Source of the DNA: Candidatus Latescibacterota bacterium | GTDB lineage: Bacteria > Latescibacterota > UBA2968 | Direction: 5' to 3' | DNA length: 64,000 nt | Assembly (NCBI GenBank): GCA_965222605.1 | Contig: OZ244960.1 | Location: 5,728,001-5,792,000, forward strand | The notes under the pieces: generated by a model | What the model saw: only the letters and a program-made list of their open reading frames with translations | Told to the model about the DNA's origin: nothing | The model's database searches: none | Shown here: positions 47,009-64,000 of the stretch, piece after piece | Position numbering within the stretch: the first letter of the stretch is position 1 | Layout: the number at the start of each line of letters is the position of its first letter | Position numbers and translations under genes: made by a program

Positions 47009-47283
47009 AAGTTGAGTCCAAAAAATACGCACGGGGCGTTGGTTGAATTGGGCACTCGCTTCAATACTGCTAACAAAAAGAAAATACGTTGGATACTGAG
47101 AAAAAACAACCTGAAATTGTAGAATGAATGGCGGATTCACACTAAACCACAACGACGCAAAACCCAATGCAAAAAACAGGAGTTACATCTGGCTGCAACG
47201 ATGTTTGAGAACAGAGTCAGAAAAATATATACCTTCAACCTCTAGGATAAGGACTCTAAGCCGTTGTCAAAGTTACAGTAATC

Positions 47284-50200
47284 CTACAAAGCTGTTGGTA
47301 AAGGCATTATGAATCTTTCGCGTAATTGAAATCCTGTCGAAGAACCAGAGTTGATCAACGCATCAAGAAGCTCAACAGTGGCTTGGCGAATTCTTATATT
47401 GCCTCGAATCTCGCTTTCTCGACTCAGAAGGTTATTTCGCAATAGCACCTCAAGATCAAATCGTGTATTAGGCTCTTGAAATATTTTTTTAGCATCTCCT
47501 TGTTGGAGGGCTTTATTAAGCCAAAGTAAGGCATCTGGAAGAAATAATCTTTCAACAGCCGATTTGAGCAAACAGACCAGTGCATTGAATCCAATTGGGT
47601 GGTGCCCTATGTGTGAACAGGCATTTTGTATGAACTCTCGATTATTTGTCAATGGCTCCCACTCTGTTGTATTCTCTTTCCATTTAATATCCGAAAAGAG
47701 CAATGTCCGGATAATTTTCCTTAGTTCTGAAGGAATAGGTCTATCGTCTGCGCGTTGATTTAGGTCTTCAAAAGCTTTAGTCGCAATTGTTGACCAAATG
47801 TTCCAGAACTGTGCATCATTTCTTGACTGATCTTCAGCCTCAAAAAGGTATGGGATGAAATATTCGGTTACTTTGTAGCAGTTCTGCCAGTTATCCATCA
47901 TAAGTTGCATTGCTGATGTTATATATTCATTAGGTTGGTTGAGGATAAATCTTGAGAAATATCCCAAGAACAGACCTGCAAATTCATAAGGATATCCGGG
48001 ATATCCACTTGAATATCTCCTCTCTGTATTTACCTCAACCGATTTTTCAATCAATAGAGTAAAGATTTTTGCATGTAACTCCTGATGATATGCTTGTGTT
48101 GATGTAGGTGGAATCAGCCCAATAGCATACTGGAGGCCGTGATAATCATGGGTCTCCAATGTTATGTCCTCAATATTGGGGTCATCTTGAATTTTACCTT
48201 CTGCAAGTTGTCGCAAGAGCGTTGTCCTACCATTGAAAATTGCCTCTACATGTGTCTGCTGCGCTTGACCTGTGTATAGATTATTAAAATGAGGAATATG
48301 ATCAATTCTCATCTTCGCATTTATGATATGCGCCTTAAGGCAATTTTCAGCAAACACCGGATCCTTTTCCCATAGTGTCTCGTGACATCCACTCACAGCA
48401 AACCATCTCACTTCCCGTGACGGATGCAAGTGGCTTGCAGCTATCCCCACTCTTATTTCCTTTTCACCCTGCTCATCAAACTGGCCCAGTAGTAAGGGCA
48501 GCACGGTTGCTGCTGGTCGAGATCCCGCCATCTCAAATATAGAAACCTCATCTTGATTATCAAGGCTACTGAATTTATGGGCAATTGCCTCAAGGAGAAC
48601 CTGACGACACCACTCTTTTTGTTCATCACTTGTTTCAGCCCAATGGTCTCTTACAATAATAGCAGCTGTATATGCATATCCGCCAGAAAAAATCTGGTAG
48701 CTTTCATCATCTGCATGTTGCAGTATTATACTCTGCGCTTCTTGGGCTTCCTGAAGAGCTTCCTGCCAGTTTGCAAAATAGTTGCTATTGTTGTCCTCTT
48801 TTTTGTATTGGGCTATACCCCAGTCCAAAAGTCTGCGAAGTTTCATTTTTCCTTCAAATTCTGGATATCCTTGTTCCTGAAACTGCTGTAAATCTTGTTC
48901 AAGTTCCTGAGGATTTAGTATGATACGTTGGTTTTCAGTATCTTCTTGCGCATTGTATCGCCGTAGGTCTATTCGGCTTAATACAATTCTCCAGGTCTTA
49001 TCTTCTTCACTTTGATCTTCAAGTGGCGGAAGTTGACTTCTAAAATTATCAAATATGTCAAAGATTTGACTCTGTACCTCAGTTATTTGCAGATTTCTTG
49101 CAAGGTCTTCAAGGCACTTCCCTCGATGGTTTCTTTGAGCTGAAGTTTTCCTTTCGTTGTCGTGGATTTCATGATCTACAGGTGTCAGTAAACCCAACAG
49201 GGATTGCCCTGCACTTATAGATTGTTCCAGAACTAATCTCTGAGTGTCCCAACAATAGAATTCTCTGGTCCTCAATAGAGGCAAGGCATGTTTTTTAAAC
49301 ACCTTTGGGTACGCGGTTGCGATGCTGACCAGCATACTCGTGATGGCTACATTATTGCTCTCAAACAGTAGTTTGTTAAATATATCTATTACGTCATTGC
49401 CGGATTCTATTTGCCTGAATAGCCAGTTTTCAAGAGCCATTAATGCAGATTGTAAAATATCGGGAGCGACAGAAGTTCCGCGATAAAGACACCATAACCT
49501 TTGTCCACCCCATTGTTGTATGGTTCTACCATCATTGAGATGCACATTCACTTGAACAGGTTCGCCGTCGTCAAGGTCTGATTTTGTATAGGCCAATATT
49601 GCGTGGTTTAAGAGTTCAATGATGAAGTCTATACCCTTTTCAGAATTATGTCGAAGTAAATTTGCAAAAGGCCCCTGCAATCCACTTGGGGGATAAAGCG
49701 AATTATGTACATCATCTAACCCAAAATTCTCATCTCTATCAAGATGTCCACTATAGAATCCATCGGAATCAGGTTCCTGATAATACCAAGCCTGCTTTGC
49801 CAATTTGACGACAATATCGGGGTAGTGCTTACAGAGTTCCTCCGAATAGAGAAAGTCCAGAGCTTCTTTTTTAAAAATGTCAAATATTCTCTCGCAAGAT
49901 TCTCCATGAATTCTGGCGTTTGCCAGTTCCGAGATTTCAGAGTTGAGCACCTCGCACACCCTCAGAACCACTCTTATCAAATCTTTGTGATTGTCTCGCC
50001 CATAATGCTCTCTTTTATCGTACAGTCGATGAAGTGCAATTAGACCCACCTTCCGTGCTTCGTCTGGTAAGGGATGATCTCTTTCTATCCCTTGTATCCA
50101 ATCGGATAATACCCCATCAATTGTAAAGTGGTGCTGCTGGCCGATTTTATCATAATGAGCATGGATGAATTCAATAACGTGTTTCCATCCGGATCCAGAT

Positions 50201-52356
50201 GGACGTAAGAACATCAGACTTATTGCGAATAATTCATGCGAATGAAGTCCGTCAAGCTGCTTGAGTGACGAGACATTGGGGTCTTTGCAAGCAATTCTGA
50301 GCAAATGCATTATCCTGTTTAACAACTGACCGTCATTGCGGAGCAATGTCTGGCACTGTTCTTGGAAGAAGGTGCCTGCATTTTCTGATTGTAGTACAGC
50401 GATTATGATATCGTCACTCCAAATTTGTTTCAGGCCATTCTGTGCCAAGCAGTCCGAGATAAAATCGTGAATATCTGGTACGGACTTCTCATTGATTGAA
50501 TCCAAGAGCCAGATACGGAAACTACGCCGAATAGCAAGTTCCATTCCTAATGCATCAAAGAATGCGAGAATATCATTCCCTTTGACTTGATACTGTTCGT
50601 CTATATATCTGATGAGTGCCCAATCCTCAAAAAGATCATGTGCAGGTGCATATCCACCATCTCGTTCGATGATAATATTATCCTGCTTGAGTTTTTCGAT
50701 TGCTTCTGGATCAGAGTCTATGTAAGGCACAGTAACTGTCATTGCTCTGGCTCGTCTGAGTGCTATATCTGTAAAACACTTTTCCCTTTTCAGCGGCAGC
50801 CCACGAATATTTTCCTGTCTTTTTTTGATCACATTTTGCCAGATCACATCTTTGAAATTTTGCTCTGTTAGAGTGGAGGGCGAGTCTGACCAGTCAATTG
50901 AACTGGCGTATTTAAGGTAGAGGGGGATTCTCAAGAGTTTAGCTACACGGTCGTTTGTCGCCAGAGGCGCAATGCTCGGTATCTGGCTTAAAACTTTGCC
51001 AAAATCATCAGCATCTAATGGTGGAATCGTCAATGTTGTCAGGTTATGAATTCTACTCGGATATAATAGATGCTGGTAGGCCATATCCAGTGAATGAATT
51101 CTACAGGTAGCAATAATTCTCCATGTATCATCCTCTGCGATAGTCGTGAGAAATTGAATGATGGTCTCAACAGAATTACTTTCGAAAATTCGCTCTAATG
51201 ACTCAATTAAAAGAACCTTTCGCGGTAATAGCGCAAACCGCGCAGATAGTTGAGGGATAGTGTCACTTATGCCAACGCTTGAAAGAACTACATCAACATG
51301 CGGTTGATTAAATTCCTCTGCTTTGAAGACAAAACAAGGAGTATCCTTTTGCAGTCTCTCCAAGACGTTCTTTGCAAGAGCAGATTTTCCTATACCTGCT
51401 CTTCCTACAATTAAAACTCCCTTCTTTTCCGAAATAGCATCTACTGCCTCAGATATAAGTGCAGATCGCTCAATATGCAGGTCGTGTCTAATTCGATCAT
51501 CTATGTTATTGAGTGTCACTTGCCCGTGTTGTCTTAGCCTCTCGATTGAATCGCACCTCACAACACTTTCATTTGGTCTGAACCATTGTTTGACTTTATC
51601 AGGCAGGGTGTCTTTTGTAATCGTTGCAGAATTGGGATTTGCCCGGGCAATGAAATCTGTTATCTGCGGCCATATAGTGCTTAAAGAGTCTGTGACATTC
51701 GGATTCTTTGCCATTTGTGCCATATTGAGGAACAAGGTTCTATCAGTACTTTCGTCCTGATCTAAGTCATAGTGAAGCCAGTGAAACACTTTGATAAAAC
51801 GCCATAATTCATCATCTGTTATAGCTGATCCTTTAGCATTATCAAGGTGCAGTCGAATAACTCTAAGGAATTCTCTCATTGTATCCGATGCAAATTTGAC
51901 GGTATGCACCTTGTCAATATATTCCGCTGCACTCTCACAATATCTTGCCCATTGGAGCAGGCGGGGAAGATTCTGGGTTATCCTTCCAGCAAGTGGTCCT
52001 GTAATCAAAACAATGGCATCGTGATTTGGGTTAAATACTGATGCATTGTTATAATCTTGCCACGCAAAATTGAGAACACCTGCTAATTTATCATCTGATT
52101 CAGTTATGGCGATTTTGTGCGTAATCTGAGCCAGAAGCTTGTGTTGGTCACCATAAGTATCCACAAGGGAAACCATCATGTCATCTATGCCAATTCCTAA
52201 TTGCCGCGCTTGCACACGTATTGAAGTGATCTCGCCCTCTGGTAAGCATGGGACAGTTCCGCCGACAAGCATATTGACGACGTATCCAGCCTGAATTTCA
52301 CGCTCGAATGTAGTTCCGCCGCCACTAGTTGAAAAAGGGTTGGATACTGTTGGCAT
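47284..52356 (-). CDS. Large STAND NTPase, Avs4-like anti-phage protein (nuclease-like N-terminus, ATPase, helical sensor)
   Basis: 1690 aa in an AT-rich tract; SNPFSTSGGG..FE N-terminus, Walker A GRAGIGKS, HDLFEDWA, LWCLYRGT..P..LQSALMALE motif recalled from Avs4. Confidence 0.7.
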   Translation of the reverse strand: MPTVSNPFSTSGGGTTFEREIQAGYVVNMLVGGTVPCLPEGEITSIRVQARQLGIGIDDMMVSLVDTYGDQHKLLAQITHKIAITESDDKLAGVLNFAWQDYNNASVFNPNHDAIVLITGPLAGRITQNLPRLLQWARYCESAAEYIDKVHTVKFASDTMREFLRVIRLHLDNAKGSAITDDELWRFIKVFHWLHYDLDQDESTDRTLFLNMAQMAKNPNVTDSLSTIWPQITDFIARANPNSATITKDTLPDKVKQWFRPNESVVRCDSIERLRQHGQVTLNNIDDRIRHDLHIERSALISEAVDAISEKKGVLIVGRAGIGKSALAKNVLERLQKDTPCFVFKAEEFNQPHVDVVLSSVGISDTIPQLSARFALLPRKVLLIESLERIFESNSVETIIQFLTTIAEDDTWRIIATCRIHSLDMAYQHLLYPSRIHNLTTLTIPPLDADDFGKVLSQIPSIAPLATNDRVAKLLRIPLYLKYASSIDWSDSPSTLTEQNFKDVIWQNVIKKRQENIRGLPLKREKCFTDIALRRARAMTVTVPYIDSDPEAIEKLKQDNIIIERDGGYAPAHDLFEDWALIRYIDEQYQVKGNDILAFFDALGMELAIRRSFRIWLLDSINEKSVPDIHDFISDCLAQNGLKQIWSDDIIIAVLQSENAGTFFQEQCQTLLRNDGQLLNRIMHLLRIACKDPNVSSLKQLDGLHSHELFAISLMFLRPSGSGWKHVIEFIHAHYDKIGQQHHFTIDGVLSDWIQGIERDHPLPDEARKVGLIALHRLYDKREHYGRDNHKDLIRVVLRVCEVLNSEISELANARIHGESCERIFDIFKKEALDFLYSEELCKHYPDIVVKLAKQAWYYQEPDSDGFYSGHLDRDENFGLDDVHNSLYPPSGLQGPFANLLRHNSEKGIDFIIELLNHAILAYTKSDLDDGEPVQVNVHLNDGRTIQQWGGQRLWCLYRGTSVAPDILQSALMALENWLFRQIESGNDVIDIFNKLLFESNNVAITSMLVSIATAYPKVFKKHALPLLRTREFYCWDTQRLVLEQSISAGQSLLGLLTPVDHEIHDNERKTSAQRNHRGKCLEDLARNLQITEVQSQIFDIFDNFRSQLPPLEDQSEEDKTWRIVLSRIDLRRYNAQEDTENQRIILNPQELEQDLQQFQEQGYPEFEGKMKLRRLLDWGIAQYKKEDNNSNYFANWQEALQEAQEAQSIILQHADDESYQIFSGGYAYTAAIIVRDHWAETSDEQKEWCRQVLLEAIAHKFSSLDNQDEVSIFEMAGSRPAATVLPLLLGQFDEQGEKEIRVGIAASHLHPSREVRWFAVSGCHETLWEKDPVFAENCLKAHIINAKMRIDHIPHFNNLYTGQAQQTHVEAIFNGRTTLLRQLAEGKIQDDPNIEDITLETHDYHGLQYAIGLIPPTSTQAYHQELHAKIFTLLIEKSVEVNTERRYSSGYPGYPYEFAGLFLGYFSRFILNQPNEYITSAMQLMMDNWQNCYKVTEYFIPYLFEAEDQSRNDAQFWNIWSTIATKAFEDLNQRADDRPIPSELRKIIRTLLFSDIKWKENTTEWEPLTNNREFIQNACSHIGHHPIGFNALVCLLKSAVERLFLPDALLWLNKALQQGDAKKIFQEPNTRFDLEVLLRNNLLSRESEIRGNIRIRQATVELLDALINSGSSTGFQLRERFIMPLPTAL

Positions 52357-52412
52357 TTGTGTATATCCTCTTTGGTGTAAATATTGCCGTGACAGTCTCT
52401 GGCTACGTCATA

Positions 52413-52442
52413 AATGTGACTACGTTATAAAGTAGTCACATT
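52413..52442. promoter_or_regulatory. 30-bp near-perfect palindrome upstream of the STAND gene
   Basis: AATGTGACTAC-GTTATAAA-GTAGTCACATT, overlapping a CTACGTYATAAA direct repeat. Confidence 0.55.
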
Positions 52443-52509
52443 ACAGCCAATTTGCAATGATACCTTCTATTTTGATGCTCCATTTCACTTTTGCAGTGAA
52501 CACAACTCT

Positions 52510-52599
52510 CTATAACAGTCGCCATAGATCACCACAAAAATTCTCGAATTCTTCCCAAGATTCAGGGGGCGGAATTTGTCTAGTTCGTGAGGAATTCAT
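52510..52599 (-). pseudogene. 5' remnant of an Mrr-like nuclease gene
   Basis: RBS AAGGA then MNSSRTRQIPPPESWEEFENFCGDLWRLL*, resembling the IPPP..W..FE..C.DLW start of Mrr-type effector domains. Confidence 0.55.
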
Positions 52600-52634
52600 T
52601 GGCTATCCTTCTGTTGTATTGAACATTAAACCGA

Positions 52635-52692
52635 CTAAGCCCCCCACACAATCAGTCATCAAATTGAGCAACTGATAGTGAGAGGGGCTTAG
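52635..52692 (-). terminator. Long imperfect hairpin directly 3' of the tRNA-like gene
   Basis: CTAAGCCCC...ATCAGT / ACTGAT...GGGGCTTAG. Confidence 0.5.
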
Positions 52693-52778
52693 CGGAGAGG
52701 GCGGGATTCGAACCCACAAGGGAACAAGTCCCTGCATCCGATTATCAGTCGGCCGCCTTACCGTTCAGCCACCTCTGA
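52693..52778 (-). tRNA. Class II (Ser-like) tRNA or pseudo-tRNA with GAT (Ile) anticodon
   Basis: TCAGAGG-TG-GCTGAACGGTAAGGC-G-GCCGA-CTGATAA-TCGGA-long V arm (AGGGA/TCCCT)-GTGGG-TTCGAAT-CCCGC-CCTCTCC-G; pairs 1:72 and 2:71 mismatched; no CCA. Confidence 0.75.
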
Positions 52779-52824
52779 GTAAGAACCACTCATGGTTCCC
52801 ATCCAAAATTGGCCGAACAGAGAA

Positions 52825-52853
52825 AACATGACAAACAGATAGCCTAATGTCAA
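52825..52853 (-). promoter_or_regulatory. Promoter of the tRNA-like gene
   Basis: TTGACA-17 nt-CATGTT with extended TG, about 45 nt upstream of the tRNA-like gene. Confidence 0.45.
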
Positions 52854-53072
52854 GATTTAACCAACGAAAGTGTTGTGCAGTAGTTTAGTGTTTGCTGATA
52901 TCTTCAGCAATTCAGTGTCTCAAATTTAGTCGGATCTTACAACTCTCCTTGGACGATTTTTTGACAGGGAAGATACGGACACTTTTATAGGTATAGCAAA
53001 AAGCGTAAAGCATGGTGCGATCTTCTGAAAAGGGTTCAATGATCTGATGGGGCTTCTTCGGGAGAACCAATT

Positions 53073-53603
53073 TCAACGCACAGGTGGAGGAGGTGGGGAA
53101 GTGTAGGTGCGGGCGGCTCTACCGTTGCGTCGGATTGCGTCCGCGATAGGTCCAAGCCGCGATGGCCCCGAAAACATCCCGTCGTCCAAAATTCTCTGAA
53201 TCTCGTCCGTTTTCATTGTCGCTATGAACTTGAAAACCCTCGGTATGGCACTGACTCGAGACTTGGATGCAGGTTCATCAATCCCGTAAATCTGGCAGAA
53301 ATTTCTAATGTCGCCAAACGTTGGGAGAAAGGCCTTGTTTTCAAATCTTTTTGCAAGCTCCGTCGCTATCGGCTTTTTTTTCGAAGAAAGTTCCATCTTG
53401 GCAACATACTCCGGAGCATTAACCTTTGCCCTCTTATTAAGGGGCTTTGTTACTGCTTTTTTATCAGATAGCACTTTGCTCTGTTTGGAACTTTTGAGTT
53501 GACGATCAGCAAGGCGAATTTCCCGTAGAGATTGATCAACTTGCTCGAAACCATATTGGCGAACTATCAAACGCAGCGTATCTTTGAGTTTAGCTTTAGT
53601 CAT
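53073..53603 (-). CDS. Hypothetical basic protein downstream of ParA
   Basis: 176 aa ORF, GGAGG upstream, co-oriented 21 nt after parA; no family recognised. Confidence 0.7.
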   Translation of the reverse strand: MTKAKLKDTLRLIVRQYGFEQVDQSLREIRLADRQLKSSKQSKVLSDKKAVTKPLNKRAKVNAPEYVAKMELSSKKKPIATELAKRFENKAFLPTFGDIRNFCQIYGIDEPASKSRVSAIPRVFKFIATMKTDEIQRILDDGMFSGPSRLGPIADAIRRNGRAARTYTSPPPPPVR

Positions 53604-53624
53604 AAGCTATCAACCCTCCTGCCA

Positions 53625-54479
53625 TCATTCAAGCCCAAGTACTTGGAAGAATTCGCTCGCAAAATTATCAAAGAGAACGGCATCACCACGGTGCGTAAAA
53701 TCTCCACGCATCATTTTGGGGAATCCACGAGAGAGGGGAATCTCGTTCTCGAATATGCGCCATCCGTTTTCTCTGGCTTCCTGAAGTATTTCAAGCCTAG
53801 CTCTACGCCTTTCTGGCCCACCCCTGTTTCCACTGTAATGATAAGATGAATTGTTGATAACGACGCCGATAACGTCAATCCGGTGGCCTCGATTATGTCC
53901 TCTAAACGCGTTAAGGGAATCGTTCAGTAATGGAAAGCCAATAGTTGCAAAATACTCAGGCTTGACGGGAACAAGAATGTAGCCAGAGGCATGGTATGCG
54001 GCTTGGGTGAATATAGATTCGGTTGGCGCGCAATCTATAATGATGAGGTCTTTATCTTGGAAACTATTGGCGATAAGCCGCGCCAGAATCTCCGGATCAG
54101 GCTTAATTGATTCAACCAAGTTGTCGGAGAAATCAAACCTTGAAGGAATGAGATGCAAATTGCGACCGCCCAAGGGAGTATTGCTAACAATCACATCAGC
54201 AATATTAAGTGGTCCTGGCGATGTCATACTAGCAGTTGGCGGCTGATATCCATTAAATATCTCAACAATTGATGGAGAGTTGTCGTTTAGGAACTGCCTA
54301 TAATTTCTATCCCTCATAAAAGCTTGAGAAAGATTAGCTTGTGGGTCCAGGTCAATAGCAAGGACATTAAGATTAAGACGTGATGCCGCATACCGACTCA
54401 GCAACGCCGCAATAGTCGTCTTACCGACGCCGCCTTTCATGTTAATCACCGAGACACAAACAGGTCCCGTTTGGGCCAT
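53625..54479 (-). CDS. ParA/Soj-family ATPase (orphan)
   Basis: INMKGGVGKTT, IDLDPQANLS, IIDCAP. Confidence 0.9.
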   Translation of the reverse strand: MAQTGPVCVSVINMKGGVGKTTIAALLSRYAASRLNLNVLAIDLDPQANLSQAFMRDRNYRQFLNDNSPSIVEIFNGYQPPTASMTSPGPLNIADVIVSNTPLGGRNLHLIPSRFDFSDNLVESIKPDPEILARLIANSFQDKDLIIIDCAPTESIFTQAAYHASGYILVPVKPEYFATIGFPLLNDSLNAFRGHNRGHRIDVIGVVINNSSYHYSGNRGGPERRRARLEILQEARENGWRIFENEIPLSRGFPKMMRGDFTHRGDAVLFDNFASEFFQVLGLE

Positions 54480-54569
54480 ATTTATCTCCTACTTTGCGAA
54501 GGCTGAATAGCACATAATACAAGACATTTTACTGATGTTAATATACGGTCTTTAGGATAAAAGGCAAGT

Positions 54570-59073: not shown

Positions 59074-61107
59074 TCACTCTCGCGAGAGGTGCGGCAAGTA
59101 GCCTTGTTTCTGGAGTATTTGAATTAGTGATTTGGGGTTTGCCGCATTGTTGAGGGTTGCAGTGGTTGGAGAAATGCGGTCGCCCAATGCCTGGGCGATG
59201 CGGGGTTGGGCATAGAGTTCATCGAGCAATTCGCGCGTGGCGGTTTTGATACGTCCGATGGAGGGAATGATTTTGATCTCGCCGTATTTTTCGTCACATT
59301 CGGCAATCAAAGTATCGACCATGTCGGGTAACCCACTTGCGCTGTGCCGCGTCAAAAATGCGCGTATCTCGTCCCCTGACAAGCCGCGTGCTAATGCGCG
59401 GCGGATCGAGTCGCGAGAAAGATGGAAACACGCCATTACATCCTGTGTTTTGAGGTCGCCGAGGACGCACAGTCTGAGATAGTGAGCGCAGGGAAGGTCT
59501 GGCGGGGATAGAACTTCAAAATTGGGCTGTACAACAAATTTTGCATCTGAATTTTGCAGGGGTATTTGTTCGATTAGTGCATCATCATGCGTGTCGTGCA
59601 ATAGGGCGTAGCCCGCAGGGGTGATCTGAAAGACCGCCTGTTTGCTGCGCTGCAATGGTGCAGAGAAATCGGGGAAGTTGCCCACGAGGACAACGCCCAT
59701 CCATGTGAGCGCACCTGTGATGATGCGGCGCAACAATTCATCGGCGGTGGTTCCGGTATGGGCTGGGTTTTTGGCAAAATGCCGAAAAGGTTCTGAAAGG
59801 CGTGTCAGGAATTGATAATACGACGGATATGTTATCCAGGTGTCGGTAGGGCAATGCCGCAGGCTCCGCACGAGTTCACTGCGAATATTTTTCAGTTCTT
59901 GCATTCGGGCACTGGTGGCTTTTGTGCGGTCGGAAGCCCACTCATTCCACCGCTTGCTGTGAAACCAGAATTCAAAGCACGCCTTGCGTATGTCGATGAT
60001 GTGCCCTATCCGGGTGCCAGCATCCGAGGCGGTATGCCAGGCTGCGCCCTGGGGAGTTACCAGCTCCGTTGTTTCGGCAAAGAGCGTGAGAAATTCAATA
60101 TAGCCCGGATCGTTCTGGATATGGCAGTATTTGTTCGCGTCGCGCAAATCGGTTTTGGATATGCCACCGTGTTTGAGTCTGCGGGGCAAGCGTTGTGCAA
60201 TAATGCCGAGCAATGTGGTCAGGTCCCGAGTGAGAAAGGCGGTATTTTCGCATATCGCGGTGGGAGTGATGGTAGAGGTTTTGAGGAGCGTATCGAGACT
60301 GCTTTCGAGTTGTCCTCCCTGAGATTGGGCGATTTTGGATAGGGCAGCGCAAAGGTCTGATGCGAGACATATCGCAGCGTCGGGGGCTTGAAGATTGCGA
60401 TTCGGTGCGTAAAAGATCGGCATTTTCCAGAGCATGTCTTCCAATTCACGGACTGCGGATTCCCCCAATTTGTCGGCGATTTCGCGACGTGTGAGTGCGT
60501 TGGCTGGGAGGAACAAGTCGAGAATGGCGCGGCGATCTTCGCTGAGTGTGTCGAGGTAGGCGTGCAGTGTTTTAATGTCGAGCAGGGCATCTCTTATGGC
60601 GTTGGATACGATGGGTTTGCGCGTGTCTGAAAGGCGCAGGCCAATCTGATCTGCAAAAGCTCGGAGCAAACCCACAGATACGGGTTTCAAGATGACGAGC
60701 AGTCGGCCCTGATCTGCGTCGGGAATGGGAATGGATTTGAGCAGCGATTCGGGAATGCCGATTAGAACGTCTGAATCACCCAATGTATGTACATCTCGAA
60801 ATACAAAACCGGTCAGGTCACTGAGTTGTGCATGGAGACGGGGAAGAAATCCGTTGGCAAATTTTTCAACGGTTTCGGTTTCTAAAAGCTCGCCCCCTTC
60901 GGCAGCAAGGGTCTGTACCATCGCGCGCTGTTCATGCGATAGGGCAGCGAGGCGTTTTGCTACACGCTCGGGGTTGGGGAGTAAGCGGCAAAGCTCATCG
61001 GCGAGGCTGGTTTTGTTGCTGCTGTGGCCCGGATCAACACCCATATCTCGGGCGAGTTGACAGAGCGTGCTGAAGGGATATTGTGTGAGTGCTGCGCGTA
61101 GTTTCAT
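59074..61107 (-). CDS. Helicase-associated (XPB C3 / Helicase_C_3) domain protein
   Basis: VVQPNFEV, LSRDSIRRALARG..I..FL..HS..LP..V motif. Confidence 0.75.
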   Translation of the reverse strand: MKLRAALTQYPFSTLCQLARDMGVDPGHSSNKTSLADELCRLLPNPERVAKRLAALSHEQRAMVQTLAAEGGELLETETVEKFANGFLPRLHAQLSDLTGFVFRDVHTLGDSDVLIGIPESLLKSIPIPDADQGRLLVILKPVSVGLLRAFADQIGLRLSDTRKPIVSNAIRDALLDIKTLHAYLDTLSEDRRAILDLFLPANALTRREIADKLGESAVRELEDMLWKMPIFYAPNRNLQAPDAAICLASDLCAALSKIAQSQGGQLESSLDTLLKTSTITPTAICENTAFLTRDLTTLLGIIAQRLPRRLKHGGISKTDLRDANKYCHIQNDPGYIEFLTLFAETTELVTPQGAAWHTASDAGTRIGHIIDIRKACFEFWFHSKRWNEWASDRTKATSARMQELKNIRSELVRSLRHCPTDTWITYPSYYQFLTRLSEPFRHFAKNPAHTGTTADELLRRIITGALTWMGVVLVGNFPDFSAPLQRSKQAVFQITPAGYALLHDTHDDALIEQIPLQNSDAKFVVQPNFEVLSPPDLPCAHYLRLCVLGDLKTQDVMACFHLSRDSIRRALARGLSGDEIRAFLTRHSASGLPDMVDTLIAECDEKYGEIKIIPSIGRIKTATRELLDELYAQPRIAQALGDRISPTTATLNNAANPKSLIQILQKQGYLPHLSRE

Positions 61108-61119
61108 GATGGACACAGT
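61094..61119. repeat. 26-bp direct repeat, copy 1
   Basis: GCGCGTAGTTTCATGATGGACACAGT, identical to 61586..61611. Confidence 0.9.
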
Positions 61120-61152: not shown

Positions 61153-61161
61153 AAAAAAAAG

Positions 61162-61234
61162 TGGAGCCGAGCGGGATCGAACCGCCGACCTTTTGACTGC
61201 CAGTCAAACGCTCTCCCAGTTGAGCTACGGCCCC
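61162..61234 (-). tRNA. tRNA-Ala (GGC)
   Basis: Full cloverleaf GGGGCCG...CGGCTCC-A, G3:U70, loop CTGGCAG; CCA not encoded; TTGACA-17-TACCCT promoter at 61252..61280. Confidence 0.95.
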
Positions 61235-61674: not shown

Positions 61675-64000
61675 TTATGACCAAACATAGTCGAAACACA
61701 CCAGATGCAGGTCTTCGCGCCTGAACGGCCCAGACCTTTGGATATTGTGATGTTCTTGCTCAGTTTCGCTTGTTGCAGAAGCAGGCACAGCATTGACCAA
61801 TTGGTGGATATCTTGATGCTGTGAGAAGGCTGTGTAAGCAGATCTTAGCTCTCTAACTGCAACACGCGCCATGGGCGGGGAAAGTTTTTTAATCGCCGAC
61901 CTCACTTCCTGCCTGGAAATGACCGGGCTGTTGAGGTAATTTCGGAGTAGGGTGATAACATTCTGCTGAATAGGATCGAGTATCCTGGGAGCCGCTACCA
62001 CGGCCTGCTGCTCCTGCACAGACCGCAAGATATCCTCTATTACCTTTTCCTGCACGTCGAATAGATCGCAATCGCCTACTACCCTCGGAGTATCTTGAGA
62101 GCAGGTGATTAGGTTGGTAATCAGGAGGCGATTGTCCTGGATTTCGTTCCGTTTCAGGTCGTAGTACCGCCAGAAGTGGCGACGACCTTCGCCGTGAGTT
62201 GCAGGTGCGGTAAAGTAGAAGAATACGCCGCGCTCTCCCTTTTGGGCCAAACCCGAATGGATGCCATCGGGTAGTTCCTCAAGCATCTCCTGAGCACCGG
62301 ACTCCAGCGCATTGCGAAGTTGCTGTAATAGAAATTCGTTGCTCGCTAACTCCGCGAATTGTTCCTGCTCTTCAATAACACTGTCGTCCTCATCCATGAT
62401 GCGATTCAAAGTATTAAAGTTTCGAGGGTGGACTGTTTCACCCAGTACCGAGGCGTCCAGAAATCCAGCACTATCAATATCTTCAATTTTGCGACTCAGG
62501 CTTTCCACCAGTTTCAAGAGCCGCTCCAGCCCTTCTTCGGGAAACATGTTGTAAACCCATAGTGTCTGAAATTCCGAACCTATGCGATCAATTCGTCCGG
62601 CTCGCTGCACCATGCGCGTCGGATTCCAATGCAGGTCGTAATTGACCAATATGCCACAGTCCTGGAGGTTCTGACCCTCAGATAAAACATCCGTAGAGAT
62701 CAGTATATCGATTTCTTGCTCAGAATTGATTAATTCCTCTTTGCCGTTTGAACGTGGCGCAAAAGCCTCAATAAGTCGTCTGCGATTTTTAGGGGGAGCA
62801 CCGCCGTCCATGCGGCGGATGAGCGGATTGCCAGCTTTCTTTCTAAATTTCTCGCTGCGTTCTAACTCTCGGTAAATGTAGCGCGCTGTGTCCCGGTAGT
62901 ATGAAAAAACGATGACTTTCTCGCCTTTCAGATCTTGGGAAAGGAGCGCCTTGAGCATCGTTAGTTTGGCATCCTGCTCTGGTTTAATATCACGGATCAT
63001 GTGCCAAACTTCGGTTAGTGCATCTACATCGTGTTGTAGCGATTCGTGTAGGCGTCCGAGATCGTACTGCTGAGAATCCAGTGTCGGCAGGCTTTCCAGA
63101 ATTTGTCGCGCCTCTTCGTTGCCATCCAACTCGTCGGCTATACTGGAAGGGGTGCTATCGTCCTCTTCGTCCTCGCGCTCGAGGAAGCGCATGGCTTGGC
63201 GGAATGATGTACTATCCAACAGCCTGCCGTCCAAAAGATAACTCTTAAAGGTCGAGGTGAATTCCAGAGCACGTTTTACACTAATGCGGAAGGCTTCTAC
63301 GCTTGACTCAAATCGCTTCAGGTAGCGACTTCTAAAAATGCCAGCCAGTGCTACTTCCCTGCCCAGTTCAAACGTATCTCTCTCGATGCCTAACTTTTTG
63401 TAGGTCTCTAACTGATAGGGAGCAAGGCGCAGATTATCTATGGCGTTAACAATTTTTTCATAGATTCCAGCGTACAAGGACTCCAGATCGTAGCGAATCG
63501 TCTTGAGCCTGCGCTCAGGCCATTGTATAGCATTACCTTGAATGGTGGCTTCGGGATACGTCTTGCGAATGAACACCCTGGTGCGCCTGATCACGACCTC
63601 TTCAAGCAGATTGAAGAGCGCAGTCCCCGTGCGGTGATCGGCTGAATTCTGACGTGCGCGGAGGAAGAACCTGCGTAGATCACCAATTCCAGCACTGGCG
63701 AAGTAGCTTAGATCTCCACCTGTGAACAGGTTTATTTGGTTATACAGATCAAAGATATTGTTGTTGATGGGGGTGGCGGTGAGCATGATCAGTTTCTTGC
63801 GTCCACCATCCTTACTTCTTCTACCATTACCGCTAAGAATGCGCTCAAGATTTTCGTAGCGCTGAGTGTTACTGTTGCGAAAGTTATGGGATTCGTCAAT
63901 CAGTACTACATCTGCATCAGCATGGTGCAGAGTGTCAAAATCAGCCTGTCCAAGCGCTTCTTGAGAGATGATAGCGGCTGATATGGTGGCATCTTGAAGT
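61675..64000 (-). CDS. SNF2-family helicase (restriction-modification/defence island type), 5' partial
   Basis: LVDESHNFRN, MLTATPINN, STDVLSEGQNLQD, YDLHWNPTRMVQRAGRIDR; frame appears to stay open to the window edge. Confidence 0.85.
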   Translation of the reverse strand, partial: LQDATISAAIISQEALGQADFDTLHHADADVVLIDESHNFRNSNTQRYENLERILSGNGRRSKDGGRKKLIMLTATPINNNIFDLYNQINLFTGGDLSYFASAGIGDLRRFFLRARQNSADHRTGTALFNLLEEVVIRRTRVFIRKTYPEATIQGNAIQWPERRLKTIRYDLESLYAGIYEKIVNAIDNLRLAPYQLETYKKLGIERDTFELGREVALAGIFRSRYLKRFESSVEAFRISVKRALEFTSTFKSYLLDGRLLDSTSFRQAMRFLEREDEEDDSTPSSIADELDGNEEARQILESLPTLDSQQYDLGRLHESLQHDVDALTEVWHMIRDIKPEQDAKLTMLKALLSQDLKGEKVIVFSYYRDTARYIYRELERSEKFRKKAGNPLIRRMDGGAPPKNRRRLIEAFAPRSNGKEELINSEQEIDILISTDVLSEGQNLQDCGILVNYDLHWNPTRMVQRAGRIDRIGSEFQTLWVYNMFPEEGLERLLKLVESLSRKIEDIDSAGFLDASVLGETVHPRNFNTLNRIMDEDDSVIEEQEQFAELASNEFLLQQLRNALESGAQEMLEELPDGIHSGLAQKGERGVFFYFTAPATHGEGRRHFWRYYDLKRNEIQDNRLLITNLITCSQDTPRVVGDCDLFDVQEKVIEDILRSVQEQQAVVAAPRILDPIQQNVITLLRNYLNSPVISRQEVRSAIKKLSPPMARVAVRELRSAYTAFSQHQDIHQLVNAVPASATSETEQEHHNIQRSGPFRREDLHLVCFDYVWS

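What the first reader, a model, noticed from the sequence alone, without database searches (positions are those of the whole stretch)
52693..52778. Serine-scaffold tRNA with an isoleucine anticodon
Seen: long variable arm, G73 and a CCTCTCC 3' strand (Ser-like), but the anticodon is GAT, one change from Ser GCT. The A15:U48 pair is compatible, and there is a promoter-like element upstream and a hairpin downstream. U1:C72, C2:C71 and G27:A43 are mismatched. Known: SerRS ignores the anticodon, and normal tRNA-Ile is class I with A73. Inference: either a missense tRNA inserting Ser at AUU/AUC (needing 5' repair or tolerance), a decoy for anticodon nucleases, an integration target, or a decaying pseudogene.
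Basis: partly seen in the sequence, partly recalled or inferred. Interest (0 to 1): 0.7.

Follow-up and report, generated by a model that had tools for sequence, protein, structure and literature searches.

The report
Odd tRNA-like RNA beside defence gene
An extra, serine-shaped tRNA look-alike with an isoleucine anticodon sits in a phage-defence island; it is probably not a working tRNA but a tRNA-derived folded RNA whose own leader pairs with its front half.

Summary
On the minus strand at 52693-52778 lies a class-II (serine-type) tRNA-like sequence with anticodon GAU, G73, U1:C72, C2:C71 and G27:A43 mismatches, and a long hairpin behind it. It is an extra gene: the genome has all four normal tRNA-Ser genes and a normal tRNA-Ile.

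It lies in a variable island, 336 nt upstream of an Avs4 antiviral STAND gene. Only one homologue was found, in a congener (G005). That copy has the anticodon CAU, the same unpaired positions 1-2, two compensated acceptor pairs and a remodelled but still paired variable arm.

New finding: the 42-nt leader pairs with tRNA positions 1-18 in a 26-bp hairpin (G-U pairs but no mismatches). This fold excludes the acceptor and D stems and is about 17 kcal/mol more stable than the cloverleaf in both copies.

A translating missense tRNA is very unlikely. My best reading is a tRNA-Ser-derived structured RNA kept by selection, perhaps a transcript-end or insulator module at a cassette junction. A functionless relic remains a serious rival, because everything rests on two related sequences.

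The parts
52693..52778 (-). Class-II (Ser-type) tRNA-like body, 86 nt: anticodon GAU, G73, positions 1-2 unpaired, G27:A43 mismatch, no encoded CCA
   Evidence: ARAGORN; Rfam tRNA 39.7 bits; sequence; pair list; best match to host tRNAs is Ser, 71-73% identity
52761..52820 (-). Hairpin H1: the leader (52820-52779) pairs with tRNA positions 1-18. 26 pairs (19 Watson-Crick + 7 G-U, no mismatch), two 1x1 internal loops, loop UGAG. Mutually exclusive with the acceptor and D stems.
   Evidence: MFE and centroid folds; pair list; about 17 kcal/mol more stable than the cloverleaf; strongest leader:5'-half duplex among the 49 tRNA calls of the genome
52635..52692 (-). Hairpin H2, 22 pairs, starting one base after G73; no U-run behind it
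   Evidence: the terminator scan found none
52825..52853 (-). Weak promoter-like site TTGACA-17-(TGn)CATGTT; a start about 7 nt on would fall at the base of H1
   Evidence: sequence; fails the consensus scan; G005 has TTTACA-17-TATATT, 10 of 12, at the homologous place, 5 nt before H1
52610..52854 (-). Whole block shared with G005 (79% identity), bounded on both sides by insertions or deletions between the two genomes
   Evidence: blastn; alignments A2 and A3
52510..52599 (-). 29-codon remnant (plus stop) of the start of another conflict-system gene, between the element and Avs4; absent in G005
   Evidence: 78% identity over 102 nt to the 5' end of a 1313-aa gene elsewhere in the genome, which carries TPR repeats and the PIN-TPR-GreABC domain
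52413..52442 (.). Perfect 11-bp inverted repeat AATGTGACTAC-N8-GTAGTCACATT upstream of Avs4, kept in G005; operator-like
   Evidence: sequence
47284..52356 (-). Avs4 antiviral STAND NTPase, 1690 aa, with an N-terminal LmuA/Cap4-like nuclease domain; low G+C (0.42)
   Evidence: PADLOC Avs4 E 1.5e-231; PDB 8dgf E 1.3e-132; AF2 pLDDT 90.4 and Foldseek hits to LmuA, Avs3 and Cap4; composition
53073..54479 (-). ParA-like ATPase (53625-54479) and a 176-aa protein of no family (53073-53603), upstream on the same strand
   Evidence: Pfam; the block occurs without the element in G020 and G002
47011..54555 (.). Variable island in the spacer between the xylose-isomerase-like gene and the sulfatase gene
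   Evidence: synteny over 21 genomes of the genus; empty sites read

Best explanation
This is a tRNA-Ser-derived structured RNA of about 190 nt that is no longer used in translation. From 5' to 3' it has a 26-bp leader hairpin (H1) that ties up tRNA positions 1-18, then the anticodon, variable and T hairpins, then a 22-bp hairpin (H2). It is read from the minus strand, from its own weak promoter and/or by read-through from the ParA/176-aa genes.

I think selection keeps its helices. I think it acts in cis at a cassette junction of the defence island, as a transcript-end, processing or insulator module that shields the toxic Avs4 nuclease-NTPase gene from upstream transcription.

Shown: the sequence features, the two competing folds, the single homologue with the same defects, and the island context.
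Inferred: selection on the structure (two sequences only), transcription, and the cis role.
For: (1) It is an extra gene, not part of the translation set. ARAGORN finds 49 tRNA genes, including Ser GCT/TGA/CGA/GGA and a class-I Ile GAT. The element is only 71-73% identical to the host Ser tRNAs.

(2) A homologue exists in G005.
- It shares both flanks.
- Positions 1-2 are again pyrimidines opposite C71/C72.
- The anticodon is CAU and position 73 is U.
- Acceptor pairs 5:68 and 7:66 are changed on both sides.
- 27:43 is repaired to C-G.
- The variable arm is different but forms a 7-bp stem.
- The 15:48 pair reads A:U in G000 and G:C in G005.

(3) H1:
- 26 pairs with 7 G-U and no A-C in G000; 25 pairs plus one broken terminal pair in G005.
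- 9 substitutions fall in H1 columns and 0-1 pairs are broken, against 3.6 expected (P 0.04 and 0.001).
- A strain SNP at 52812 turns a C-G pair into U-G (position read).

(4) Fold of 52635-52820:
- Minus strand: -89 kcal/mol, z -6.85, with 0 of 200 shuffles folding as well.
- Plus strand: -69.1 kcal/mol, z -5.08.
- The 20 kcal/mol asymmetry fits G-U pairs in an RNA of the tRNA sense.

(5) The fold with H1 beats the cloverleaf by 17 kcal/mol in both copies.

(6) Structure taken from G005 alone and tested on G000: 3 of 63 pairs broken, against 10.4 expected (P 0.0004).

(7) Junction position:
- G005 has a type I R-M operon inserted just upstream of the element.
- G000 has a gene remnant just downstream.
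- The flanks are 85-91% identical but the element only 79%.

(8) Contigs of RNA libraries X15 and X16 cover 52691-52843 and 52827-53100.
Against: - Only two related sequences exist, which amounts to one evolutionary instance.
- The tool's own shuffle control cannot separate signal from noise with two rows: 125 of 500 shuffles (H1 fold) and 56 of 500 (cloverleaf) reach the observed covariation.
- With the structure taken from G000 alone, 6 of 58 pairs are broken in G005 against 9.2 expected (P 0.10).
- My first figure, P 3e-05, used a consensus that had already dropped pairs failing in either sequence, so it is biased.
- The acceptor covariation alone is weak. By my count P is about 0.05-0.1 given four transitions in the stem; the unconditional P is 0.38.
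- The block diverges faster than its flanks (79% against 85-91%), which also fits relaxed constraint.
- None of the other 77 Avs4-homologue loci examined has such an element. The link to Avs4 may therefore be incidental, and Avs4 clearly needs no such RNA.
- No terminator-like site passes the scan.
- RNA-library contigs do not prove transcription, since DNA can be present in such libraries.
- The cis role rests on inference only.
Confidence: 0.4

Rival explanations
1. Functionless relic. A tRNA-Ser gene, or most of one, came in with foreign island DNA. It lost its first two bases and its Ser anticodon in the common ancestor of G000 and G005, gained the leader complementarity through an inverted duplication, and is now drifting.
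For: - Defects shared by both copies: positions 1-2 unpaired, no CCA, a non-Ser anticodon on a class-II body.
- G000 also has a G27:A43 mismatch and a D loop shorter by 2 nt.
- The block is the most diverged piece of the locus (79%).
- It is found in 2 of 168 genomes of the phylum by blastn and 2 of 151 by covariance model.
- It is absent from the other 77 Avs4 loci examined.
- One unbiased test is not significant (P 0.10).
Against: - Substitutions mostly keep pairing: H1 P 0.04 and 0.001; structure from G005 tested on G000 P 0.0004.
- H1 has 7 G-U pairs and no A-C pair.
- There are two double-compensated acceptor pairs, and the variable stem is rebuilt rather than lost.
- The T loop, U8, A14 and G18-G19 are intact in both copies.
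Confidence: 0.32
2. Trans-acting tRNA mimic in defence. The RNA is a stable small RNA whose tRNA-like half is hidden by the leader. It acts as a decoy, sensor or conditional effector: once the leader is cut away, for instance during infection, the cloverleaf can form and bind tRNA-binding proteins.
For: - Two mutually exclusive folds both look conserved.
- tRNA core nucleotides and the 15:48 pair are kept.
- Anticodon position 34 and position 73 differ between the copies.
- It lies in a defence hotspot next to Avs4 and, in G005, a type I R-M system.
- Published Ser-type allo-tRNAs with a UAU anticodon and destabilised stems lie near toxin-antitoxin loci and were inactive in translation (PMC5389517, section 16 read).
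Against: - No partner protein is evident.
- The Avs4 effector is a DNA nuclease of the LmuA/Cap4 type.
- The element is missing from the other 77 Avs4 loci examined.
- There is no evidence of leader cleavage.
- Only two copies are known.
Confidence: 0.12
3. DNA-level element. H1 and H2 are single-strand DNA hairpins or recombination sites that mark cassette borders in the island, and the tRNA likeness is incidental.
For: Insertions and deletions lie directly on both sides of the block. The inverted repeats are long.
Against: - No integrase, transposase or HUH enzyme family was found among the ORFs scanned in the window island or in the G005 island.
- There are no other copies in the genome.
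- The GTT...AAC order of the H1 ends is opposite to that of integron attC sites (attC consensus recalled).
- There are no direct repeats at the island borders.
Confidence: 0.07
4. Working missense tRNA. It is charged by SerRS, which ignores the anticodon, and reads AUU/AUC (AUG or AUA in G005), putting Ser at Ile or Met codons.
For: The long variable arm, C11:G24, A3:U70 and G73 (G000) are Ser-like. The anticodon loop is well formed, with U33 and A37. The T and D loops are canonical.
Against: - 1:72 and 2:71 are unpaired in both copies. G2:C71 is a major SerRS element in E. coli, and a 1:72 mismatch blocks EF-Tu binding, as in initiator tRNA (established knowledge, recalled).
- H1 outcompetes the cloverleaf by 17 kcal/mol.
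- No CCA is encoded.
- G005 has U73.
- Ser at abundant Ile codons would be highly toxic.
Confidence: 0.03

Closest known systems
Bacterial class-II tRNA-Ser
   Same: Long variable arm with a stem, xxAGAGG/CCTCTCC acceptor, G73, C11:G24, G13:A22, canonical T loop. The nearest sequences are Ser tRNAs of the host (71-73%) and of the phylum.
   Different: GAU anticodon, positions 1-2 unpaired, no encoded CCA, D loop 2 nt shorter than in G005, and a leader that pairs with positions 1-18.
allo-tRNA(UAU) species (Mukai et al., Nucleic Acids Res 2017, PMC5389517; passages and section 16 read)
   Same: Ser-type tRNA-like genes with isoleucine-type (NAU) anticodons and stem-destabilising changes. They were inactive in translation tests and are found near toxin-antitoxin or transposon genes. 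The authors suggest they are not used for translation.
   Different: allo-tRNAs are defined by an 8/4 or 9/3 acceptor/T arrangement. This element is 7/5. No leader hairpin is described there in the parts I read.
tRNA gene remnants at genomic-island borders (att sites; recalled)
   Same: A partial, foreign-looking tRNA inside a variable island.
   Different: No resident tRNA at the empty site, no repeated copy, no integrase found among the ORFs scanned. It lacks 2 nt at the 5' end, whereas att remnants keep only a 3' part.
tRNA-like processing or mimic RNAs (mascRNA/MALAT1 3' end, bacterial Y RNA YrlA, B. cereus tRNA-Other; recalled; the last is cited in PMC5389517)
   Same: A tRNA-shaped module inside or beside a longer structured RNA, not used for decoding.
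   Different: No Rfam family other than tRNA reaches its gathering score here. There is no Ro/Rsr or RtcB neighbour.
Avs4 antiviral STAND (neighbouring gene; PDB 8dgf)
   Same: The downstream gene matches Avs4 over its NTPase and sensor parts.
   Different: Avs4 is a single-gene system. Of 78 homologue loci examined, only the G005 locus carries such an RNA.

Membership tests
tRNA (Rfam RF00005) | Score at or above the family's gathering score | tested here: met
   39.7 bits against 29 in the window; 41.5 bits in G005. The alignment covers only model positions 3-68.
Elongator tRNA-Ser | Seven-pair acceptor stem with G1:C72 and G2:C71 | tested here: not met
   U1:C72 and C2:C71 in G000; C1:C72 and C2:C71 in G005
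Elongator tRNA-Ser | Long variable arm with a stem; G73 | tested here: met
   5-bp stem (G000) and 7-bp stem (G005). G73 is present in G000 only; G005 has U73.
Elongator tRNA-Ser | Serine anticodon (NGA or GCU) | tested here: not met
   GAU in G000, CAU in G005
Elongator tRNA-Ser | Charged by SerRS and used on the ribosome | not testable with these tools
   Needs charging assays or tRNA-seq. tRNAscan-SE isotype models were not available.
tRNA-Ile | Class-I body with short variable loop and A73 (recalled), plus GAU anticodon | tested here: not met
   The anticodon fits, but the body is class II with G73. The host's own tRNA-Ile(GAT) is 77 nt.
allo-tRNA | 12-bp acceptor branch arranged 8/4 or 9/3 (PMC5389517 abstract) | tested here: not met
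   Read by hand from the sequences: an 8th or 9th acceptor pair would be U:C or G:G. The T stem has 5 pairs.
allo-tRNA | Ser-type body with a non-serine anticodon | tested here: met
Island att-site tRNA remnant | Resident tRNA at the empty site, a repeated tRNA part at the other island end, an integrase nearby | tested here: not met
   Empty sites in G003, G007, G013 and G004 have a short spacer without a tRNA. Only one copy exists in the genome. No integrase family appeared among the ORFs scanned.
Intrinsic terminator | G+C-rich stem followed by a U run | tested here: not met
   0 sites in 52250-53150 and 0 in the G005 region. H2 is followed by GUCGGUUUAAUGUU.
Avs4 (neighbouring gene) | Match to the Avs4 profile and the solved Avs4 structure over the NTPase and sensor parts | tested here: met
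   PADLOC PDLC02169 E 1.5e-231; PDB 8dgf_A E 1.3e-132, residues 255-1682

The most novel reading that the evidence does not exclude
A 'caged' tRNA. A serine-scaffold tRNA with an Ile/Met-type anticodon is kept inert by a leader that pairs with its 5' half. It is freed only when that leader is cut, for example during phage infection. It then acts as a defence effector or decoy, either through mistranslation-type abortive infection or by trapping tRNA-targeting phage or host enzymes. Position 34 and position 73 would vary between alleles under arms-race pressure.
Probability: 0.05. Interest if true: 0.85.

Novelty: new variant of a known kind. Interest (0 to 1): 0.5.

Why it matters
Serine-type tRNA look-alikes with sense-codon anticodons are known from soil metagenomes (allo-tRNAs). 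Their role near toxin-antitoxin loci has stayed open. This one is a canonical 7/5 version in a phage-defence hotspot, and it has a feature not described in the parts of that paper I read: a leader that hides the tRNA's 5' half.

If the structure proves to be under selection, it would show how a tRNA gene can be re-used as a structured RNA module in defence islands, or more boldly as a switchable tRNA mimic. It also offers a concrete, small construct to test.

If it is a relic, it is still a useful caution for tRNA annotation, because ARAGORN reports it as a plain tRNA-Ile.

Tried and rejected
Searches for more copies (none found):
- blastn of 111 nt over 41 genomes.
- blastn of 261 nt over 168 genomes of the phylum.
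- Covariance model R1 over 151 genomes. The next-best hits, at most 67 bits, are ordinary tRNA-Ser genes with H1 deleted.
- 78 Avs4-homologue loci from genome contigs scanned with ARAGORN.
- 11 island stretches from congeners.
- Four viral contigs pattern scans: 2 + 2 chance matches, then 0 + 0.
- One metagenome contigs pattern scan: one unrelated hairpin in a 62% G+C contig.
- blastn against plasmids and phages: no match.

Literature: searches for tRNA-like RNAs in anti-phage systems found nothing relevant in the listings.

Ideas dropped:
- An 8/4 or 9/3 allo-tRNA fold. The extra pairs do not form.
- attC-like site. The order of the GTT/AAC ends is wrong.
- The free acceptor 3' strand pairing with the Avs4 Shine-Dalgarno sequence. 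Only 5-6 nt of generic anti-SD complementarity, with weak duplexes (-11 to -13 kcal/mol).
- The anticodon loop CUGAUA pairing with UAUCAG in H2. It does not covary in G005.
- Avs4 as an anticodon nuclease. Its N-terminal domain is LmuA/Cap4-like, and Pfam and PDB sequence searches of that domain were blank.

Read laying:
- No RNA-library contig covers 51800-52690.
- One X15 contig ends at 52691, two bases past G73.
- This is one study at low depth, so I do not use either point as evidence of a 3' end or of low Avs4 expression.
- DNA runs X3 and X10 carry no difference inside the tRNA-like body. That is uninformative, with only 4 differing places in 1301 nt over the two runs.

tRNAscan-SE isotype scoring was not available.

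Full report
WHAT IS THERE

The feature lies on the minus strand. ARAGORN reports tRNA-Ile(gat) at 52692-52778. Rfam's tRNA model scores 39.7 bits (gathering score 29) but aligns only model positions 3-68.

Read 5' to 3', the 86-nt body runs from U1 (52778) to G73 (52693):
- Acceptor strands TCAGAGG and CCTCTCC give U1:C72 and C2:C71 mismatches plus five Watson-Crick pairs.
- The D arm is Ser-like (G10-C25, C11-G24, U12-G23, G13/A22).
- The anticodon loop is CUGAUAA.
- 27:43 is G/A.
- The variable region has 19 nt with a 5-bp stem.
- The T arm is canonical.
- After G73 comes CUA, not CCA.

The upstream 'promoter' is weak: TTGACA, 17 nt, CATGTT did not pass the consensus scan. The downstream hairpin is real (22 pairs at 52635-52692).

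IT IS AN EXTRA, FOREIGN-LOOKING GENE

The genome (one contig, 6.34 Mb) has 49 ARAGORN tRNA calls besides a tmRNA. They include Ser GCT, TGA, CGA and GGA, a 77-nt tRNA-Ile(GAT) beside tRNA-Ala(TGC), and three CAT tRNAs. The element is 71-73% identical to the host's Ser tRNAs and less to all others. Only one copy exists in the genome. Forty of the 49 calls encode CCA; this one does not.

CONTEXT

The element lies 336 nt upstream of a 1690-aa gene (47284-52356, minus strand, G+C 0.42 against about 0.50 around it).
- That gene is an Avs4 antiviral STAND NTPase: PADLOC E 1.5e-231; PDB 8dgf E 1.3e-132 over residues 255-1682.
- Its first 260 residues have no Pfam or PDB sequence match.
- They fold with pLDDT 90.4 into a LmuA/Cap4/Avs3-type nuclease domain.
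- Upstream on the same strand are a ParA-like ATPase and a 176-aa protein of no family.

Comparison with 20 congeners shows that 47011-54555 is a variable island in the spacer between a xylose-isomerase-like gene and a sulfatase gene.
- G003, G007, G013 and G004 have an empty site, a short spacer with no tRNA.
- Other genomes carry 2-10 kb of other content. None of the 11 island stretches examined holds a tRNA call.
- G020 and G002 carry the ParA/176-aa block without Avs4 and without the element.
- Avs4 of this kind is found in 2 of 21 genomes of the genus, G000 and G005, and the element is in the same two.

THE ONE HOMOLOGUE

In G005 the flanks are 90.6% (9883 nt) and 85.5% (1761 nt) identical to the window, but the 245-nt block 52610-52854 is only 79% identical. 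The record title of this G005 locus in genome contigs, L030, names a Candidatus Latescibacterota MAG.

A type I R-M operon (hsdR, hsdM, hsdS) is inserted in G005 just upstream of the block.

Just downstream, G000 has 139 nt that G005 lacks. They hold a 29-codon remnant of the start of another conflict gene. The full paralogue elsewhere in the genome has TPR repeats and the PIN-TPR-GreABC domain. So the block sits at a junction where cassettes have been gained and lost on both sides.

The G005 copy is again class II. It scores 41.5 bits, and ARAGORN calls it tRNA-Met(cat).
- Positions 1-2 are CC opposite C71-C72.
- The anticodon is CAU and position 73 is U.
- Acceptor pairs 5:68 (A-U to G-C) and 7:66 (G-C to A-U) are changed on both sides.
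- 27:43 is C-G and 50:64 is C-G.
- The variable arm has a different sequence but a 7-bp stem.
- 15:48 reads G:C where G000 has A:U.

The defects that make it a poor tRNA are therefore ancestral, and the anticodon is NAU in both copies.

THE NEW STRUCTURAL FINDING

Folded with its flanks, the RNA does not give a cloverleaf. The 42-nt leader (52820-52779) pairs with tRNA positions 1-18 in a 26-pair hairpin, H1.
- In G000 it has 19 Watson-Crick and 7 G-U pairs and no mismatch, with two 1x1 internal loops.
- In G005 it has 20 Watson-Crick and 5 G-U pairs, with one broken terminal pair.
- H1 excludes the acceptor and D stems.
- With the anticodon, variable and T hairpins and H2 kept in both folds, the H1 fold is about 17 kcal/mol more stable than the cloverleaf: -83.0 against -65.9 in G000, and -101.1 against -84.0 in G005.
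- The 186-nt stretch folds at -89 kcal/mol (z -6.85; 0 of 200 shuffles as good). The opposite strand reaches only -69.1 (z -5.08). This fits G-U pairs in an RNA of the tRNA sense.
- The leader:5'-half duplex (-22.4 kcal/mol) is the strongest among the 49 tRNA calls of the genome; the next is -15.5.
- In G005 a good promoter-like site (TTTACA-17-TATATT, 10 of 12) ends 5 nt before H1. In G000 the same place has a perfect -35 hexamer and a poor -10 hexamer.

IS THE STRUCTURE UNDER SELECTION?

There are 25 substitutions (18 transitions) in 167 comparable columns, with the variable arm excluded.
- With a consensus structure, 1 of 57 pairs is broken against 8.9 expected (P 3e-05). That consensus had already dropped pairs that fail in either sequence, so the figure is biased.
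- With unbiased definitions the results are mixed. Structure from G000's MFE tested on G005: 6 of 58 pairs broken against 9.2 expected (P 0.10). Three of those six are in a long-range helix that belongs to neither H1 nor H2. Structure from G005's MFE tested on G000: 3 of 63 broken against 10.4 expected (P 0.0004).
- For H1 alone, given its nine substitutions: 1 of 26 broken (P 0.04) or 0 of 25 (P 0.001), depending on the reference.
- A strain SNP seen in DNA run X10 and RNA run X15 (52812) changes a C-G pair of H1 to U-G.
- The tool's own shuffle control has no power with two rows (125 of 500 and 56 of 500).
- The acceptor covariation alone is weak. By my count P is about 0.05-0.1.

I read this as moderate evidence that the helices are being kept, resting on two sequences.

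EXPRESSION

Fourteen runs hold at least half of the sampled words of 51800-53100. Contigs of two RNA libraries from one study cover 52691-52843 (X15, 153 nt), 52862-53100 (X15) and 52827-53100 (X16). DNA runs X3 and X10 cover the whole stretch, with differences from the window at four places in all, none in the tRNA-like body. RNA-library contigs do not prove transcription or show strand. The lack of cover further downstream is not used as evidence.

WHAT IT IS NOT

- Working missense tRNA: unlikely. Positions 1:72 and 2:71 are unpaired, H1 is dominant, there is no CCA, and G005 has U73. That G2:C71 matters for SerRS and that a 1:72 mismatch blocks EF-Tu are recalled from the E. coli literature, not tested here.
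- allo-tRNA: no, because the arrangement is 7/5 rather than 8/4 or 9/3. Those RNAs are still the nearest published analogue. allo-tRNA(UAU) species have destabilised stems, were inactive in translation tests and lie near toxin-antitoxin or transposon genes (PMC5389517, passages and section 16 read).
- att remnant: no sign. There is no resident tRNA at empty sites, no repeat and no integrase among the ORFs scanned.
- General Avs4 companion: no. Of 78 Avs4-homologue loci, only G005's own has it. Five others hold ordinary tRNA or tmRNA genes, for example tRNA-Asp 450 nt upstream in L072.

SEARCHES FOR MORE COPIES

All were negative:
- 2 of 41 genomes by 111-nt blastn.
- 2 of 168 genomes of the phylum by 261-nt blastn.
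- 2 of 151 by covariance model: 155.6 and 142.7 bits, with the next hits at most 67 bits and all ordinary tRNA-Ser.
- Only chance pattern matches in viral and metagenome contigs.
- No plasmid or phage match.

VERDICT

The most likely reading (0.40) is a tRNA-Ser-derived structured RNA that no longer decodes, is kept for its helices, and acts in cis at a cassette junction. A transcript-end or insulator role ahead of a toxic nuclease-NTPase gene is my inference, not shown.

Rivals:
- Functionless relic: 0.32.
- Trans-acting tRNA mimic or 'caged' tRNA: 0.12.
- DNA-level hairpin site: 0.07.
- Translating missense tRNA: 0.03.

Novelty: a new variant of a known kind (tRNA-derived or tRNA-like RNAs). 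Interest is moderate, because everything rests on one lineage.

Noticed in passing
window 47284-52356 (-): Avs4 whose first 260 residues have no Pfam or PDB sequence match, yet fold (pLDDT 90.4) into a LmuA/Cap4/Avs3-type nuclease domain. Homologues with the same N-terminus occur across many phyla.
   Followed up: partly
window 52510-52599 (-); paralogue at L134 1878-5819 (-): A 29-codon remnant of the N-terminus of a 1313-aa TPR + PIN-TPR-GreABC conflict-system gene lies between the tRNA-like element and Avs4. It is absent in G005. This is a sign of cassette replacement.
   Followed up: partly
window 47011-54555: Island hotspot in the spacer between a xylose-isomerase-like gene and a sulfatase gene. 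It is empty in G003, G007, G013 and G004 and holds 2-10 kb of differing content in other congeners.
   Followed up: partly
L016 4730-9836 (G005): A complete type I restriction-modification operon (hsdR 792 aa, hsdM 510 aa, hsdS 395 aa) is inserted between the 176-aa gene and the tRNA-like element in G005 only.
   Followed up: yes
window 52413-52442: Perfect 11-bp inverted repeat (AATGTGACTAC N8 GTAGTCACATT) about 60 nt upstream of the Avs4 start, conserved in G005. It looks like an operator.
   Followed up: no
window 61161-61234 (-) and genome C1:5800291-5800364 (-): Two identical tRNA-Ala(GGC) genes within 181-bp blocks of 93% identity (promoter region, tRNA, terminator) lie 11 kb apart. They bracket helicase-type genes, so this may be a duplicated insertion site.
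   Followed up: partly
window 59074-61116 (-) and 61675-63786 (-): A Helicase_C_3-domain protein and an SNF2-type helicase with weak-to-moderate PADLOC matches (HKD+Snf2, DrmD, BrxH) lie beside the tRNA-Ala gene. This may be another defence locus.
   Followed up: no
window 53073-54479 (-): A ParA-like ATPase is followed by a 176-aa protein with no Pfam or PADLOC match. The pair also occurs in G020 (whole) and G002 (part) without Avs4.
   Followed up: partly
window 52812: A strain-level G>A difference (plus strand) seen in DNA run X10 and RNA run X15 falls in H1 and changes a C-G pair to U-G.
   Followed up: yes
genome C1, several places: Nine of the 49 ARAGORN tRNA calls do not end in an encoded CCA, among them several 74-nt genes (Arg cct, Lys ttt, Met cat, both Ala ggc). 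Boundaries were not checked.
   Followed up: no
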